Shown here: in pieces, positions 4,646 to 25,280 of the stretch
Position numbering within the stretch: the first letter of the stretch is position 1
Layout of the letters: every line of letters starts with the position of its first letter
Virus record (IMG/VR): IMGVR_UViG_3300006947_000007
Coordinates: 18,406 to 82,405 of that record
Source of the DNA: a virus
DNA length: 64,000 nt
Reading direction: 5' to 3' (one strand)
The notes under the pieces: model-generated
What the model was told of the DNA's origin: nothing
Database searches by the model: none
What the model saw: the letters and a program-made list of their open reading frames with translations, nothing else
Translations under genes and position numbers: made by a program

Positions 4646-4664
4646 TGCTCACTCATATTTATGT

Positions 4665-4739
4665 TGGTACACCCTAGGAGAATCGAACTCCTCTTGATGG
4701 CATGAAAAGCCACAGTCCTAACCGATAGACGAAGGGTGC
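4665..4739 (-). tRNA. tRNA-Glu(UUC)
   Basis: GCACCCT...AGGGTGT-A-CCA cloverleaf, anticodon loop TTTTCAT, T-loop TTCGATT. Confidence 0.93.
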
Positions 4740-5063
4740 TTAAACTGTTTCTATGTCGTCAGCTATTTTAACTGAGATAACGTTAGCCCAGATGAAACTG
4801 CGCCAGCCTTCTGCTTTGATATCCCACACACTTTGTAAGTGTTCCTTAACAGGCTTAGGTTCCTCACCCTCTGCTAATGGCTTAGGACGATTCTCTACAG
4901 GTATTGCCTCGGTTACAAGTGTACACGTCATTACACGCTGTTCACCGTTTTTCTTTGTAAATGTTACTTCCATGATATTTGAGCGTAAATCTTCTTTAAC
5001 TTCAGAGTTACGTTCTGGATCATCAAATCCTATTTCTTCAAATAACTTCATTTGTACTGCCAT
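4740..5063 (-). CDS. WYL-like (Sm/SH3 fold) phage protein
   Basis: VTFTKKNGEQRVMTCTL...VWDIKAEGWRSF pattern. Confidence 0.7.
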   Translation of the reverse strand: MAVQMKLFEEIGFDDPERNSEVKEDLRSNIMEVTFTKKNGEQRVMTCTLVTEAIPVENRPKPLAEGEEPKPVKEHLQSVWDIKAEGWRSFIWANVISVKIADDIETV

Positions 5064-21236: not shown

Positions 21237-22517
21237 CTATTCAATTAATTCGTGGTAGTGAGGGAAATGATCAGAGAATGATATTTTTCTTCTTTTCTCT
21301 AATATTTCAAATTGCTTCTTTGCTAATTGCTTAGCCTCTGTACTTACCTTACCGCTAACCATAGATTTCATATCCCGTAGAACCGATATGTATCCTTGTT
21401 TATCGTCAAATGTTCCAGACATGTCGATAAAATAATCTATTTGTTCTTGTATTGTGTTAGTGTGGCTAGGGTCTAAACCTAACACAGAAAGCCACAACGG
21501 ATCTTGTACCCGATTATGGTGCATTATTATTTCTTTATCGTAATCAAATTTATTAATTTTCTCATTCAAATATATCAAAAAATCCTTAAAGTATGGTAGA
21601 CTTAAACTGTTATGAGCACAGCCAAATCCTAATATTAAATTTTTAGTTTCTTTTGATTGTTTAAAGAACGAGTCTACATTTTGGTTCCATTTATCAAAGT
21701 CCAGGCCCCATCTAATTAGTTCACTCCTCTTACCTAATGCTTCTCCGGAAAGTTGCATTTCATAACGAATGTTTGGGGTTCTCTTCACTAGCTCTATAAA
21801 CTTATCATACTTGTGTTTCGGAAAGTTTAAATTGGTTGTAACAACTAGTACAACTTCTTGCCCGTCGGTTATAGTGTCATTAATGTTAACTATAAATTCT
21901 TCTATAAATTGATACATGTGATTTGTAAAGAATGGTTCGCCACCTAATAAACTAAAGGTTATAAAATCTTTATGTTTAAGAGTACTGTTCCACCATTCAT
22001 TTAATAATTGAAGTACTTTTTCAAATATAGCATCCTCTGTATCTGGGAATCGTCTACCTGTTTCTTTCTGCCAACGGCTACTCTGACCTTCCCAACAATA
22101 GGCACATGCCATATTACATTTGTTTGTTAGTTCGAGTTCAACAAACTGAAATAGATCAGATGACAAGTCTAATTTTTTATTAAATAAGGGATTGTTTTTG
22201 CGAATATGCTCAGTTCTTGTACTAGTACCGCTCGCTTCTTCTGATTTCCAGCACCCAGAACAATCTGCGGATTGTATGCCGTTGCTTAATTCATATTTTC
22301 TTTTTTGTAGCGTTGGGTGATTGAGTAAGAAATCTAAGCCTTTTGCTTCTAATATATCTAAATCAAATGTAACTTCAGCTCGCTGATCTTCTGTTAATTC
22401 TGTCTTACAACACCAGTTGACTGTTTTATTTGGCAGAGATATAATAAGATCGTTCCAAGTTTTGAAACACATTGTATCCGCATGATGTTCAGACTGCAAA
22501 TGACTCGCCGCACCCAC
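21237..22517 (-). CDS. radical SAM protein with N-terminal twitch-like Cys cluster
   Basis: CFKTW..WCC..CSGC then CNMACAYC, GGEP; exact start uncertain. Confidence 0.88.
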   Translation of the reverse strand: MGAASHLQSEHHADTMCFKTWNDLIISLPNKTVNWCCKTELTEDQRAEVTFDLDILEAKGLDFLLNHPTLQKRKYELSNGIQSADCSGCWKSEEASGTSTRTEHIRKNNPLFNKKLDLSSDLFQFVELELTNKCNMACAYCWEGQSSRWQKETGRRFPDTEDAIFEKVLQLLNEWWNSTLKHKDFITFSLLGGEPFFTNHMYQFIEEFIVNINDTITDGQEVVLVVTTNLNFPKHKYDKFIELVKRTPNIRYEMQLSGEALGKRSELIRWGLDFDKWNQNVDSFFKQSKETKNLILGFGCAHNSLSLPYFKDFLIYLNEKINKFDYDKEIIMHHNRVQDPLWLSVLGLDPSHTNTIQEQIDYFIDMSGTFDDKQGYISVLRDMKSMVSGKVSTEAKQLAKKQFEILEKRRKISFSDHFPHYHELIE

Positions 22518-22821
22518 AACTTGAAGTTGCTTGGGGGTTCTTAACTGCTAGGAACGATCCGCCTAGTTCTTGAACATAGTCAATAACACTACCCAAGACG
22601 TACATTTCAGCAAGTTTATTAATCATTAATCTATTATCGGAATCGTCGCTTAGTTGTACTTCGATCCATTCGTCTGGGTCTGTGATTTCATTGGCAAACT
22701 TCCAGTCGTATGTAAATCCACTACAGCCACCACCTTTTATAGTGAATGTGGCATATTTCTTATCATTTGTTGTTGTGGCGTTTAGCAAATAATCCTTTGC
22801 TTTGTCAGTTACGTCTATCAT
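22489..22821 (-). CDS. A-type Fe-S carrier (HesB/IscA/SufA family)
   Basis: GGGCSGF and CGCGESF. Confidence 0.92.
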   Translation of the reverse strand: MIDVTDKAKDYLLNATTTNDKKYATFTIKGGGCSGFTYDWKFANEITDPDEWIEVQLSDDSDNRLMINKLAEMYVLGSVIDYVQELGGSFLAVKNPQATSSCGCGESFAV

Positions 22822-22855
22822 TTTAATTTCCTAGTGTTATACTTACTTATCGTTG

Positions 22856-23191
22856 TCAATCTATGTGATGTACTTTTACGATTAGTGATTTGTCTGGTAT
22901 TCCTCGTAAATCTACTTGGCACCCTAGTCTGCTTTTACCTTCTACATATCCTGGTGAATAATCTAAAAGGTCCAATTCAGCAAGTGGGATTTTGCCATGT
23001 TCCATTTCTCCTAAGAGCTCGTATCCTTTTATTACTTCTATATGGCAGGTAGCACATATACAACTTCCTCCACAATCACCCCAAGGTTCTCCCTTGAAGT
23101 GATCGTAGAGTGCTACCATTATGTTGTCGTTCTCACCATATTCAACATCAAACTCACGGCCTGACCTTGTAATACACTTGAACGTGGTCAT
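22856..23191 (-). CDS. 2Fe-2S ferredoxin (ISC/adrenodoxin type)
   Basis: CGGSCICATCH...SRLGCQ; start reassigned to MTTFK. Confidence 0.88.
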   Translation of the reverse strand: MTTFKCITRSGREFDVEYGENDNIMVALYDHFKGEPWGDCGGSCICATCHIEVIKGYELLGEMEHGKIPLAELDLLDYSPGYVEGKSRLGCQVDLRGIPDKSLIVKVHHID

Positions 23192-23193
23192 AA

Positions 23194-23379
23194 CTAGCCT
23201 TTCGTTAGTACTTGGTAGGCGCCGTAGGCTATTGCGGCATAGGCGGCGTATGTAACCCATCCACCTAAAAATAGTATAACTAATCCTACAGCAACTAATC
23301 CTAGTCCACCATGAGATGCTTTCTCTTTCATTCTACTTGTAATAAAATCCATAATATTCTCCTTTATATTGTGTAGCAT
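23194..23379 (-). CDS. small membrane protein
   Basis: AGGAG RBS before MDF, 2 TM segments. Confidence 0.5.
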   Translation of the reverse strand: MLHNIKENIMDFITSRMKEKASHGGLGLVAVGLVILFLGGWVTYAAYAAIAYGAYQVLTKG

Positions 23380-23391
23380 TGCTACGTTACA

Positions 23392-23952
23392 TTAAGCATT
23401 TTCTAATACTTTCCTTATGCTTAAAACCTTTTGCTTAATCAAATCCACATAGTCTGGATTTGTACTCCATTTACTAAGGAGCTCTATTTGTTTGTTTATA
23501 TTGAGTGAGTTAGTTTCTAATTGAATAGCTCTTTCAGTTCTAAAGAGCTCATAAGCATGATGCCCATTAATAGTATTTACCATATTTTTAACTGATTCAC
23601 ACTTGTTTTTGAACGCTCTAACACCCCATACAGCGTCTGGATCGCCTAATGGCTTTAGTTGAGGTATATCTTTATTCCAAGTTCTAATACCAAACAAGTT
23701 ATTACCTTCGTTAGCAAATCTACTCTTGCCGTACCCAGATTCCATTACTGCCATAGATATAATAATCTCACTACTTATTTGCTGATCAGGGTCAATATCT
23801 AAATTTACATATTTAATACAGTTATTTACAGCTAATACAAATTCATTGTTATTAGTATATTTCATGGTAGTTGAATGATTAGAAATATTGCCAACACTTG
23901 CTGTAACTATTGTTAACAGAATCGCAATAAGTATTCCTTGATTTTTATTCAT
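23392..23952 (-). CDS. GH73 glucosaminidase-like (Bax/FlgJ) protein
   Basis: MESGYGKSRFA..GNNLFGI, WSTNPDY. Confidence 0.8.
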   Translation of the reverse strand: MNKNQGILIAILLTIVTASVGNISNHSTTMKYTNNNEFVLAVNNCIKYVNLDIDPDQQISSEIIISMAVMESGYGKSRFANEGNNLFGIRTWNKDIPQLKPLGDPDAVWGVRAFKNKCESVKNMVNTINGHHAYELFRTERAIQLETNSLNINKQIELLSKWSTNPDYVDLIKQKVLSIRKVLENA

Positions 23953-23953
23953 A

Positions 23954-24460
23954 CTATACCTTTTTACCTGCTGTTAAGAGTTCTTCCCTCGAAACAACCA
24001 TGTAAGGTCCTTTATTATAAGCAGGGACAACCGAATATTGTTTGCTAATTTCAATTCTTTCAGCTTGTTCTTTCCAACTACGTTGTTCAGATCCGTGACT
24101 GGGAACCGTGGCAGAGGTGAACGGATTCGAACCGCTAGTTTTGGATTTGGAATCCAACGTGTTACCATTAACACTACACCCCTTGAATGGTTCTCTTAAT
24201 AGTGTTGGACCTGAAACAAGTTTATTAACTATTGGTGTATGTTTATTTTGATATGCTTGTTTAGGTTTATAATAGCCCTGAACATAATCAATGTATTCAG
24301 TAAGAGTCATTTGAAGACCATGTAGGTGTTGTTTTCTTAGATGTTTATTATATGCTTTAAGGTCTTTAGATAGTTTTATCTTTTCTTTCTCAGATACAAT
24401 CTTACGTTTATACTTTTTTGTATTTAACGAGGTCATCCCCCGTACCAAACCCATGGTCAT
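23954..24460 (-). CDS. conserved phage hypothetical protein containing a nested tRNA
   Basis: Basic N-terminus and C-terminal VPAYNKGPYMVV; packed 1 nt from both neighbours. Confidence 0.7.
   Translation of the reverse strand: MTMGLVRGMTSLNTKKYKRKIVSEKEKIKLSKDLKAYNKHLRKQHLHGLQMTLTEYIDYVQGYYKPKQAYQNKHTPIVNKLVSGPTLLREPFKGCSVNGNTLDSKSKTSGSNPFTSATVPSHGSEQRSWKEQAERIEISKQYSVVPAYNKGPYMVVSREELLTAGKKV
24109..24183 (-). tRNA. tRNA-Trp(CCA), nested in CDS 23954..24460
   Basis: AGGGGTG/CACCTCT acceptor, GTGT/ACAC D-stem, TTGGA-TTCCAAA-TCCAA anticodon arm, AGCGG-TTCGAAT-CCGTT T-arm, G73, encoded CCA. Confidence 0.93.
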
Positions 24461-24714: not shown

Positions 24715-25179
24715 TTAAAATTCGTGTGTATAATTAGCGTAATACTTAACGTTATCTATCATCCAGCTTATTGTTGAATGAGAGTAAACTTCCTGCCTAG
24801 ATTCTTCATATCTAGTTTGTACTGTACAAATTGTTTGAGTTTGCCCGTTAGTAGTTGGCTTATTCTTGTTAGCTACATCGGCACCAATGATAGCACCTAA
24901 TATAGTTGCGGCATCGTTACCTTTGCCTTTACCTACTTGGTTACCAATAACACCGCCAATGATAGCACCAAACAATACATCGGCACTTGAAGCGCCAGTA
25001 CCATTAGTGTACACTTGCTTACAAACTTCAACATTGTACGGTACTTGGCTTATTACTGTTTTCATATGATGATAAACATTAGGCCTTTCTACTCTTCCCG
25101 AATTTAAATCAGCCATTGCTGACGCGGCTACCAATGTTAACATTGTACTAGCAATTATTACTTTGATTGTATTTTTCAT
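24715..25179 (-). CDS. glycine-zipper 2TM domain protein
   Basis: Signal peptide; GAIIGGVIGNQVGKGKGNDAATILGAIIGA. Confidence 0.8.
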   Translation of the reverse strand: MKNTIKVIIASTMLTLVAASAMADLNSGRVERPNVYHHMKTVISQVPYNVEVCKQVYTNGTGASSADVLFGAIIGGVIGNQVGKGKGNDAATILGAIIGADVANKNKPTTNGQTQTICTVQTRYEESRQEVYSHSTISWMIDNVKYYANYTHEF

Positions 25180-25213: not shown

Positions 25214-25280
25214 ATTATACACTATACAGGCCAAAAGTCAACCATTTTCTCGTCTTTTTTGTCAATATAACCTGTTGATT
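25214..25280 (-). promoter_or_regulatory. early promoter with upstream IHF-consensus site
   Basis: AATCAACAGGTTA-N26-TTGACT-N16-TATAAT. Confidence 0.7.

What the first reader, a model, noticed from the sequence alone, without database searches (positions are those of the whole stretch)
23954..24460. Intact tRNA-Trp nested in-frame inside a same-strand protein-coding gene
Seen: a 75-nt (25-codon-long) tRNA-Trp(CCA) at 24109..24183 with all four stems, G73 and encoded CCA. It sits in the middle of a 168-aa ORF that reads through it without a stop (..KGCSVNGNTLDSKSKTSGSNPFTSAT..). The ORF abuts both neighbours by 1 nt and has protein-like ends; I recall the C-terminal PAYNKG.Y motif from a marine phage family. 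Inference: dual-coding DNA in which tRNA maturation destroys the mRNA, so each transcript yields either protein or tRNA. This could be a processing-based switch, or a tRNA inserted into a tolerant linker.
Basis: partly seen in the sequence, partly recalled or inferred. Interest (0 to 1): 0.85.

Follow-up and report, generated by a model that had tools for sequence, protein, structure and literature searches.

The report
tRNA gene nested inside phage gene
A complete, working-looking tryptophan tRNA gene lies inside the floppy middle of a small two-part protein gene of an uncultured marine giant phage, and relatives keep both the tRNA shape and the open reading frame. So one stretch of DNA is selected both as tRNA and as protein code.

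Summary
A tRNA-Trp(CCA) at 24109-24183 (minus strand) lies inside the 168-codon ORF 23954-24460 on the same strand.

- **One gene, not two.** 182 homologues cover both flanks, so this is one two-domain protein. Most homologues lack the insert.
- **The insert sits in a tolerant linker.** The tRNA-coded residues 93-118 lie in a variable linker that AlphaFold models as disordered.
- **The nesting recurs.** The homologous gene holds a nested tRNA-Trp in eight other contigs and in the cultured phage Melnitz. Genes sharing the C-terminal PAYNKG motif hold nested Ala, Thr, Asp, Glu or Glu+Ala tRNAs. The frame is open in every case found.
- **Both layers are selected.** The tRNA shows compensatory pair changes. 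The C-domain downstream of it has dN/dS of 0.07-0.39.
- **The 75-nt length is a coincidence.** Of the other 39 nested tRNAs (30 in 26 distinct ORFs of the wider set, plus nine Trp), none has a length divisible by three. An excisable, intron-like cassette is therefore rejected.
- **New for this window.** Its tRNA is a different type, read in a different codon phase, from the other nested Trp genes. It is 73/75 identical to free-standing tRNAs in unrelated phages.

That each transcript yields either tRNA or protein is inference. The protein's function is unknown. This scan has reported the same layout on other genomes. The closest published case is selC inside selB (Mukai 2021).

The parts
23954..24460 (-). 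168-codon protein gene (plus stop) that contains the tRNA. The N-terminus MTMGLVRG..LNTKK is conserved across the family.
   Evidence: ORF list. 182 homologues cover both flanks. RNA-library contigs 100% identical to 24241-24441 and 23985-24135.
24251..24460 (-). N-terminal domain, residues 1-70: a basic stretch followed by two helices (24-43 and 53-61) and the motif EYIDYVQGY.
   Evidence: Alignments A1 and A4. AlphaFold pLDDT above 90 for residues 21-60. dN/dS 0.09-0.5 among tRNA-bearing members.
24086..24250 (-). Variable linker, residues 71-125, predicted disordered. It holds the tRNA.
   Evidence: Length and sequence vary among homologues. pLDDT 42-51 for residues 71-120.
24109..24183 (-). 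tRNA-Trp(CCA), 75 nt, with A1-U72, G73 and encoded CCA. It is read by the ORF as residues 93-118 (K GCSVNGNTLDSKSKTSGSNPFTSA T).
   Evidence: ARAGORN. Rfam 60.9 bits. Covariation across 10 nested Trp genes: 98.9% of cells paired, 9 of 21 pairs with changes on both sides. 73/75 identical to free-standing phage tRNA-Trp genes.
23957..24085 (-). C-terminal domain, residues 126-168 (W..ERIEISKQY..PAYNKGPYMVV..TAGKKV): helix, beta-hairpin, helix.
   Evidence: Nearly invariant in the family. pLDDT 82-89. dN/dS 0.07-0.39 with dS mostly above 0.9 among tRNA-bearing members. No in-frame start codon lies between the tRNA and this domain.
25214..25241 (-). Promoter-like site (TTGACT, 16 nt, TATAAT; 11 of 12 matches) in the intergenic gap two genes upstream. 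It may be the start of the transcript that carries the gene.
   Evidence: Consensus scan only. The number of such sites in the region is no higher than in shuffles. This is a weak lead.

Best explanation
A functional tRNA-Trp gene sits, on the coding strand, in the disordered linker between the two conserved domains of a small phage protein of unknown function, and both products are made from the same DNA.

Ribosomes that start at the ATG at 24460 must read straight through the tRNA sequence, which yields a 26-residue piece of linker, in order to reach the C-terminal PAYNKG domain. Transcripts, or stretches of transcript, that are free of ribosomes can fold into the cloverleaf. Host RNase P (5' side) and the 3' processing enzymes then cut them to release tRNA-Trp. 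That cut severs this gene's message.

The either/or fate of each RNA molecule is most likely a tolerated by-product of putting a tRNA into the one place in a tightly packed operon where an insert does no harm to the protein. It is less likely to be a purpose-built switch.

The linker of this family acts as a recurrent landing place for tRNA genes. The window's copy was acquired, or replaced, separately from the 76-nt tRNA-Trp found in its relatives.

Shown here: the anatomy, the recurrence, and selection on both the RNA structure and the reading frame. Inferred: expression of both products, the processing route, mutual exclusivity, and the history of the insert.
For: 1. One protein, two domains. 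182 homologues of 126-168 aa cover both flanks and most lack the insert. In tRNA-less relatives the sequences flanking the window's tRNA are contiguous: '..VRETQF|VPS..' against '..LREPF[tRNA]VP..'.
2. The linker is predicted disordered (pLDDT 42-51), while the N and C domains are confident.
3. Recurrence. A nested tRNA-Trp on the same strand, with an uninterrupted ORF, is found in L002, L137, L029, L034, L135, L136, L144 and L150 and in cultured phage Melnitz gene 124. In genes sharing the C-domain there are 30 more nested tRNAs (Ala, Thr, Asp, Glu, Glu+Ala) in 26 distinct ORFs, all read in a stop-free frame.
4. The tRNA is under RNA-level selection. 98.9% of cells are paired, 9 of 21 pairs show changes on both sides, and 0 of 500 shuffles reach this. 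tRNAs are 93-97% identical between members whose flanks are saturated at synonymous sites.
5. The frame is under selection.
   - The C-domain downstream of the tRNA has dN/dS 0.07-0.39.
   - There is no in-frame start between the tRNA and the C-domain in the window, L002, L137, L029 or L135.
   - The 76-nt type has only one stop-free frame, and that is the one used.
   - The window's 75-nt tRNA, one base shorter in the D-loop, is entered one base later, so the 3' half is read in the same frame as in the relatives.
   - Glu-Ala spacers of 8 or 5 nt both keep the frame.
6. Separate history of the window's tRNA.
   - It is only 56-61/76 identical to the other nested Trp genes, but 73/75 identical to free-standing copies in otherwise unrelated contigs.
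   - tRNA-bearing members sit in three places on the protein tree.
   - Holding them as one clade costs 42 log-likelihood units, p-AU 0.034.
7. Metatranscriptome libraries hold 100%-identical contigs of the gene. One runs from the C-domain 27 nt into the tRNA. This is a weak hint only.
Against: - No direct evidence exists that either the mature tRNA or the full-length protein is made. The RNA-library contigs are short and of low depth, could be DNA carry-over, and the one touching the tRNA has fewer than 31 nt inside it.
- For a single insertion, an open frame is not improbable, roughly 1 in 6.
- The protein has no recognisable family or fold, so no functional link between protein and tRNA can be argued.
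- The tree rests on about 140 columns and the AU test is only marginal (p 0.034), so one ancient origin followed by many losses and a later tRNA replacement is not excluded.
- The cloverleaf is the minimum-energy fold in context for the window, but not for several relatives.
Confidence: 0.68

Rival explanations
1. Chance read-through of a dead gene. The tRNA insertion inactivated the protein gene, and the ORF merely happens to remain open.
For: Two of the three frames of the window's tRNA lack stops. Free-standing tRNA-Trp genes have about 1.3 open frames on average. A single in-frame insertion therefore has a chance of roughly 1 in 6.
Against: The ORF is open in all 9 Trp-bearing genes, in Melnitz, and in all 26 distinct ORFs of the wider set. 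The C-domain downstream of the tRNA evolves at dN/dS 0.07-0.39 while synonymous sites are saturated. Length changes in the tRNA and in spacers are compensated so that the frame holds.
Confidence: 0.04
2. The tRNA is a relic. Only the protein matters, and the tRNA-like stretch is a former tRNA now serving as linker code.
For: The segment is in a disordered linker where almost any sequence is tolerated. Mukai 2021 describes decayed tRNA remnants inside selB.
Against: A relic would lose its pairing. Here 98.9% of cells pair, 9 pairs show compensatory changes, and the Rfam score is 60.9 bits. The window's copy differs at only 2 of 75 positions from free-standing tRNA-Trp genes in non-coding DNA of other phages, and one of those two changes turns G3-U70 into G3-C70. 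tRNA-less linkers show no tRNA remnant.
Confidence: 0.07
3. Intron-like cassette. The tRNA is cut out by RNase P and the 3' endonuclease, and the two mRNA halves are rejoined by an RNA ligase, giving a message for a protein without the 25 extra residues.
For: In the window the tRNA is exactly 75 nt, so precise removal would keep the frame. The cleavage products would carry 3'-OH and 5'-phosphate ends, which T4-type RNA ligases accept (established knowledge; no ligase gene was looked for).
Against: All other nested tRNAs of the family are 74, 76 or 77 nt long. None of the 30 in the wider set, none of the 8 other Trp cases and not Melnitz has a length divisible by three. The flanks are in frame only if the tRNA is translated.
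Confidence: 0.02
4. Read-through is selected for the operon, not for this protein. Continuous translation across the tRNA is kept to avoid Rho-dependent polarity or to keep translational coupling to the downstream glucosaminidase gene.
For: The stop is 1 nt from the next ATG. Mukai 2021 proposes coupling for selB and its downstream ORF. The genes are packed on one strand.
Against: It does not explain the near-invariant amino-acid sequence and low dN/dS of the C-domain, nor why the same C-domain follows nested tRNAs in genes with unrelated N-termini and neighbours. It may act in addition to protein function.
Confidence: 0.08

Closest known systems
selC (tRNA-Sec) nested inside the selB ORF of Alphaproteobacteria (Mukai 2021, Int J Mol Sci 22:4605, PMC8124441; read)
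   Same: An entire tRNA gene lies on the coding strand inside a protein ORF and is translated into extra residues. The trait is kept across lineages. The author proposes that folding and processing of the tRNA represses the full-length protein. The evidence is bioinformatic only.
   Different: There the tRNA forms a C-terminal extension with no conserved protein domain after it, is always tRNA-Sec, and the protein (SelB) binds that very tRNA. Here the tRNA lies between two conserved domains, so the ribosome must cross it to make a functional protein. The host is a phage, the tRNA identity varies across the family (Trp, Ala, Thr, Asp, Glu, even two in tandem), and no link between protein and tRNA is known.
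Methylophilales phage Melnitz gene 124 and tRNA gene 125 (MZ577097; Buchholz et al. 2022, PMC9004378)
   Same: A homologous gene (EYIDYVQG and AYNKG motifs) with a tRNA-Trp(CCA) nested on the same strand. It is a cultured phage-host pair.
   Different: The tRNA is 74 nt and only 49/76 identical to the window's, and the protein is distant (36% identity to L034). In the passages I searched, the paper lists the tRNA as gene 125 and does not mention that it lies inside gene 124.
Free-standing tRNA genes of T4-like and other large phages
   Same: The window's tRNA is 73/75 identical to such genes in other marine viral contigs. It has the usual bacterial tRNA-Trp marks (A1-U72, G73, CCA anticodon).
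   Different: Those copies lie in non-coding DNA, after terminator-like hairpins or beside other tRNAs. This one has no non-coding flank at all.
Co-transcribed tRNA-mRNA operons (E. coli thrU-tyrU-glyT-thrT-tufB) and mitochondrial tRNA punctuation (from general knowledge)
   Same: One primary transcript carries both tRNA and mRNA, and tRNA processing cuts it.
   Different: In those systems the tRNAs lie between coding regions, so cutting releases intact messages. Here cutting destroys one.

Membership tests
Bacterial-type tRNA-Trp | Cloverleaf recognised by tRNA finders | tested here: met
   ARAGORN. Rfam RF00005 60.9 bits against a cut-off of 29.
Bacterial-type tRNA-Trp | Anticodon CCA, discriminator G73, A1-U72 (identity elements from the literature on E. 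coli TrpRS, recalled), encoded 3' CCA | tested here: met
   Read directly from the sequence.
Bacterial-type tRNA-Trp | Stems kept by compensatory change among relatives | tested here: met
   9 of 21 pairs show changes on both sides, 98.9% of cells are paired, 0 of 500 shuffles reach this, and slid controls give 44-53% paired.
Bacterial-type tRNA-Trp | Mature, aminoacylated tRNA is produced | not testable with these tools
   Only short contigs from RNA libraries were available.
tRNA nested in a protein ORF (selB-selC kind, Mukai 2021) | Whole tRNA on the coding strand inside an ORF that stays open across lineages | tested here: met
tRNA nested in a protein ORF (selB-selC kind, Mukai 2021) | tRNA-coded residues form a C-terminal extension, with no conserved domain after them | tested here: not met
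   A conserved 43-residue C-domain follows the tRNA.
tRNA nested in a protein ORF (selB-selC kind, Mukai 2021) | The protein acts on the nested tRNA (SelB binds tRNA-Sec) | not tested
   The protein has no known family or fold.
PAYNKG-motif small proteins of marine phages (partly PHROG 4593, function unknown) | C-terminal W..E.S..Y..PAYNKG.Y motif block | tested here: met
   Invariant columns in A1. phrog_4593 E = 0.006 for the C-part alone, and 5 of 64 members match at E <= 0.001.
PAYNKG-motif small proteins of marine phages (partly PHROG 4593, function unknown) | N-terminal MTM.L..G..LNTK / YNK / EYIDY.QG block of the myophage subfamily | tested here: met
In-frame excisable cassette (intron- or intein-like insert) | Insert length is a multiple of three, so that removal restores the frame, in all members | tested here: not met
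   Only the window's tRNA is 75 nt. The others are 74, 76 or 77 nt.

The most novel reading that the evidence does not exclude
The disordered linker of this protein family is a dedicated, exchangeable slot for tRNA genes in marine phages, and the contest between ribosomes and RNase P for the same RNA is put to use. When translation of the operon is brisk, the protein is made. When ribosomes are scarce or stalled (late infection, host shut-off, tRNA-targeting defence), the cloverleaf folds and the phage's own tRNA is released instead. Supply of the tRNA would then be tied to the state of translation, possibly with the protein acting on tRNA or on the ribosome.
Probability: 0.15. Interest if true: 0.9.

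Novelty: new variant of a known kind. Interest (0 to 1): 0.74.

Why it matters
Genes for stable RNAs and genes for proteins are normally treated as separate units, and annotation pipelines either drop one of the two or flag the overlap as an error. The GenBank table for Melnitz lists the ORF without remark.

Here a whole tRNA is read as protein code between two conserved domains. This happens in many independent lineages and with at least five tRNA identities. The same 75 bases therefore meet two unrelated sets of constraints, and every transcript faces a choice between being a message and being a tRNA precursor.

If both products are confirmed, this would be the clearest natural case of mRNA/tRNA dual coding. 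It would offer a simple system for studying how ribosomes and RNase P compete for one RNA. It would also give a rule for annotating phage genomes: do not discard ORFs that run through tRNAs. A cultured phage with the same layout makes it testable.

Tried and rejected
- **DNA of other tRNA-signature proteins.** The DNA of the five further protein clusters whose linker text looks like a translated tRNA (P0002, P0026, P0028, P0030, P0072) could not be fetched. Their tRNAs are inferred from peptide text only. P0002, the window's closest relative at 84% identity, is among them.
- **Protein function.** No informative match came from:
  - Pfam and PHROGs on the protein and on 64 members;
  - Foldseek against PDB and BFVD;
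  - VIA-align wide, best Z 4.0;
  - the ESM Atlas.
- **tRNA remnants in tRNA-less relatives.** The Rfam scan at E <= 1 found none inside the genes. Local alignment of 16 linkers against both tRNA types was no better than shuffles, apart from three marginal values, p 0.02-0.04 uncorrected. The idea that ordinary linkers are decayed tRNAs therefore has no support.
- **Conserved helix bracketing the tRNA.** In the window the flanks pair (GAACC/GGUUC) outside the acceptor stem. This is not seen in six relatives, so I treat it as chance.
- **Adaptation of the tRNA to the frame.** The free-standing twins are already stop-free in the frame the window uses, and the two differences create or remove no stop.
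- **RNA evidence.** Four metatranscriptome runs gave only five short contigs. None formally bridges a tRNA boundary: the best has 27 nt inside the tRNA. Parts without cover say nothing.
- **Promoter and terminator scan.** The counts are no higher than in shuffles.
- **Literature.** Six searches found no description of nested tRNAs in phage ORFs. The theta-ribozyme paper was checked and is unrelated.

Full report
**1. The observation**

ARAGORN finds three tRNAs in the window. One is tRNA-Trp(cca) at 24109-24183 on the minus strand. Rfam's tRNA model scores it 60.9 bits against a cut-off of 29. The sequence shows a regular cloverleaf with A1-U72, G73 and an encoded CCA.

The ORF 23954-24460, also on the minus strand, is 168 codons long and runs through the tRNA. 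The tRNA begins at the second base of codon 93 and ends at the first base of codon 118. One base separates the ORF from the stop of the gene upstream and one from the ATG of the gene downstream.

The window is part of an 82-kb viral record that CheckV rates 23% complete, which points to a very large phage. The closest cultured relatives of the gene are in the marine myophages Mosig, HTVC008M and Melnitz.

**2. Is the ORF a real gene?**

A search of the large protein collection gave 182 homologues of 126-168 residues covering 90-100% of the query. Their alignment shows three parts:
- a conserved N-terminal part (MTM.L..G..LNTK, YNK, EYIDY.QG);
- a linker that varies in length and sequence;
- a nearly invariant C-terminal part (W..ERIEISKQY..PAYNKGPYMVV..TAGKKV).

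Most members have no insert.

AlphaFold on a 64-sequence alignment gives confident helices at 24-43 and 53-61. It gives a confident helix / beta-hairpin / helix at 129-163. Residues 71-120, which include all tRNA-coded residues, have pLDDT of only 42-51.

In the nearest tRNA-less relatives, the residues that flank the window's tRNA are adjacent: '..VRETQF|VPS..' against '..LREPF[tRNA]VP..'.

**3. The nesting recurs**

I scanned viral and metagenome contigs with the family profile and ran ARAGORN on the loci. A tRNA-Trp(cca) lies inside the homologous gene, on the same strand and with the ORF uninterrupted, in L002, L029, L034 and in L135, L136, L137, L144, L150. 148 other family loci had none.

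I checked it. Gene MelnitzEXVC044M_124 (148 aa) contains a 74-nt tRNA-Trp on the same strand. The published description lists the tRNA as gene 125 and, in the passages I searched, does not mention the nesting.

One representative from the profile search (P0244) had linker text that looked like a translated tRNA. Following it led to a wider set of viral contigs. There the same C-terminal domain is preceded, inside one ORF, by tRNA-Ala, tRNA-Thr, tRNA-Asp, tRNA-Glu, or tRNA-Glu plus tRNA-Ala in tandem. That makes 30 tRNAs in 26 distinct ORFs, each read in a stop-free frame and each with a start codon upstream.

**4. Selection on the RNA**

Ten nested Trp genes were aligned to the cloverleaf. They pair in 98.9% of cells. 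Nine of 21 pairs show changes on both sides. No shuffle out of 500 reaches these values, and sliding the partners drops pairing to 44-53%.

Within the clade that holds L029, L034, L135 and L136, the tRNAs are 93-97% identical, while synonymous sites of the flanking codons are near or beyond saturation.

**5. Selection on the frame**

- Downstream of the tRNA, the C-domain evolves at dN/dS 0.07-0.39 among tRNA-bearing members. The N-domain evolves at 0.09-0.5.
- In the window, L002, L137, L029 and L135 there is no in-frame ATG, GTG or TTG between the tRNA and the conserved domain. The domain can therefore only be reached from the upstream start.
- The 76-nt tRNA type has a single stop-free frame, and it is the one used.
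- The window's tRNA is one base shorter in the D-loop and is entered one base later. From the D-stem onward it is read in the same frame as its relatives.
- In the Glu+Ala genes, the spacer between the two tRNAs is 8 nt or 5 nt, and both keep the frame.

As a control I looked at about 50 free-standing phage tRNA-Trp genes with the same D-arm. Their stop-to-stop frames are only 25-112 codons long and none carries the family motif. They have 1.3 open frames on average. A single in-frame, stop-free insertion therefore has a chance of roughly 1 in 6. The weight of the argument lies in the recurrence and in the dN/dS values, not in the single case.

**6. The 25-codon length is a coincidence**

None of the other nested tRNAs has a length divisible by three: 74 nt in Melnitz, 76 nt in eight Trp genes, and 76 or 77 nt in all 30 of the wider set. 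Their flanks are in frame only if the tRNA itself is translated.

This rejects the idea of an excisable, intron-like cassette whose removal and re-ligation would restore the message.

**7. What is particular to this window**

Its tRNA is only 56-61/76 identical to the other nested Trp genes. It is 73/75 identical to free-standing tRNA-Trp genes in six viral contigs (L095, L096, L108, L120, L122, L128). Those contigs share almost nothing else with the window at the DNA level. In them the tRNA lies in non-coding DNA, behind a terminator-like hairpin or next to another tRNA. One of the two differences turns G3-U70 into G3-C70. Neither affects a stop codon.

On a tree of 108 distinct family proteins, tRNA-bearing members fall in three places:
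- a well-supported clade of seven, six of them with the tRNA;
- the pair L002/L137;
- the window alone.

Forcing all nine together costs 42 log-likelihood units (p-AU 0.034).

The different tRNA type, codon phase and insertion point add to this. Taken together, the window's lineage most likely captured its tRNA separately, or swapped it by recombination with another phage's tRNA-Trp. One old origin with many losses is not excluded.

tRNA-less linkers carry no detectable tRNA remnant.

In the L034 clade the tRNA replaces a stretch of linker of similar length, so the proteins stay at 145-150 aa against 140-145 without it. In the window it adds length.

The C-domain also occurs behind unrelated N-terminal parts. 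The linker is thus a general recombination joint of the family.

**8. How it most likely works**

The gene lies in a run of tightly packed minus-strand genes. A consensus-like promoter lies two genes upstream, which is a weak lead only.

The ribosome must unwind and read the tRNA sequence to make the full protein. RNase P and the 3' processing enzymes must find the folded cloverleaf to make the tRNA, and their cuts sever the message. This leaves a 5' piece without a stop codon and a 3' piece without a start. That each RNA molecule therefore gives one product or the other follows from established knowledge of tRNA processing, but it is not shown here.

I think the either/or is a tolerated cost of using the one harmless insertion site in a compact operon. 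An evolved switch is possible but has no evidence.

Metatranscriptome libraries from three studies hold contigs 100% identical to parts of the gene. One (23985-24135) runs from the C-domain 27 nt into the tRNA. This fits an unprocessed transcript, but it is short, thin and could be DNA.

**9. Comparison with what is known**

The closest published case is selC inside selB in Alphaproteobacteria. [quoted passage not shown] There the tRNA forms a C-terminal tail, is always tRNA-Sec, and the protein binds that tRNA.

Here the tRNA sits between two conserved domains, the carrier is a phage, the tRNA identity varies, and the protein is unknown. I found no paper describing this in phages.

This scan has reported the same layout on other genomes. 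Those notes gave me the Melnitz and Mukai leads, and I checked both.

I class the finding as a new variant of a known kind.

**10. Limits**

- The protein's function remains unknown.
- No experiment shows either product.

Noticed in passing
window 21237-23260 (minus strand): Three overlapping or adjacent iron-sulphur genes just downstream in the same gene run: a radical-SAM-like protein (426 aa, below the Pfam cut-off), an IscA/HesB-type Fe-S assembly protein (110 aa) and a 2Fe-2S ferredoxin (134 aa).
   Followed up: partly
window 24715-25179 and 23392-23952 (minus strand): Two genes upstream lies a glycine-zipper (Rick_17kDa_Anti) lipoprotein-like gene. Directly downstream lies a glucosaminidase-domain gene. 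In Pelagibacter phage HTVC008M the family homologue gp171 lies two genes from a 'surface antigen / outer membrane protein', gp173, so part of the neighbourhood may be conserved.
   Followed up: no
L218 1652-2038, L219, L221, L232-L235: A single ORF of 123-128 codons runs through two tRNA genes in tandem: tRNA-Glu (77 nt) then tRNA-Ala (76 nt). The spacer is 8 or 5 nt, and both lengths keep the frame.
   Followed up: partly
L138 1098-1520: This is the only tRNA-less member inside the otherwise tRNA-bearing clade. It sits on a long branch (0.76) and no tRNA remnant is detectable in its linker. It is probably a loss with replacement of the linker.
   Followed up: partly
L095 10081-10167 against window 4658-4743: The contig that carries a free-standing near-twin of the window's tRNA-Trp also has a tRNA-Glu 85% identical to the window's tRNA-Glu, while the rest of the DNA does not match. 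The tRNAs seem to travel or persist apart from their surroundings.
   Followed up: no
L096, L108, L120, L128 (just upstream of the free-standing tRNA-Trp): The free-standing twins sit directly behind a G+C-rich hairpin followed by a T run (terminator-like). They would then have to be transcribed by read-through or from a promoter of their own.
   Followed up: no
window 24184-24196 and 24098-24108: In the window's RNA the flanks just outside the acceptor stem can pair (GAACC with GGUUC), and a second outer helix can form. This is not conserved in six relatives.
   Followed up: yes
P0125, P0244 and loci L215-L294: The 40-residue PAYNKG C-domain is joined to at least four unrelated N-terminal parts. 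Many proteins share only the N-domain of the window's protein. The two halves behave as separate modules joined at the linker.
   Followed up: partly
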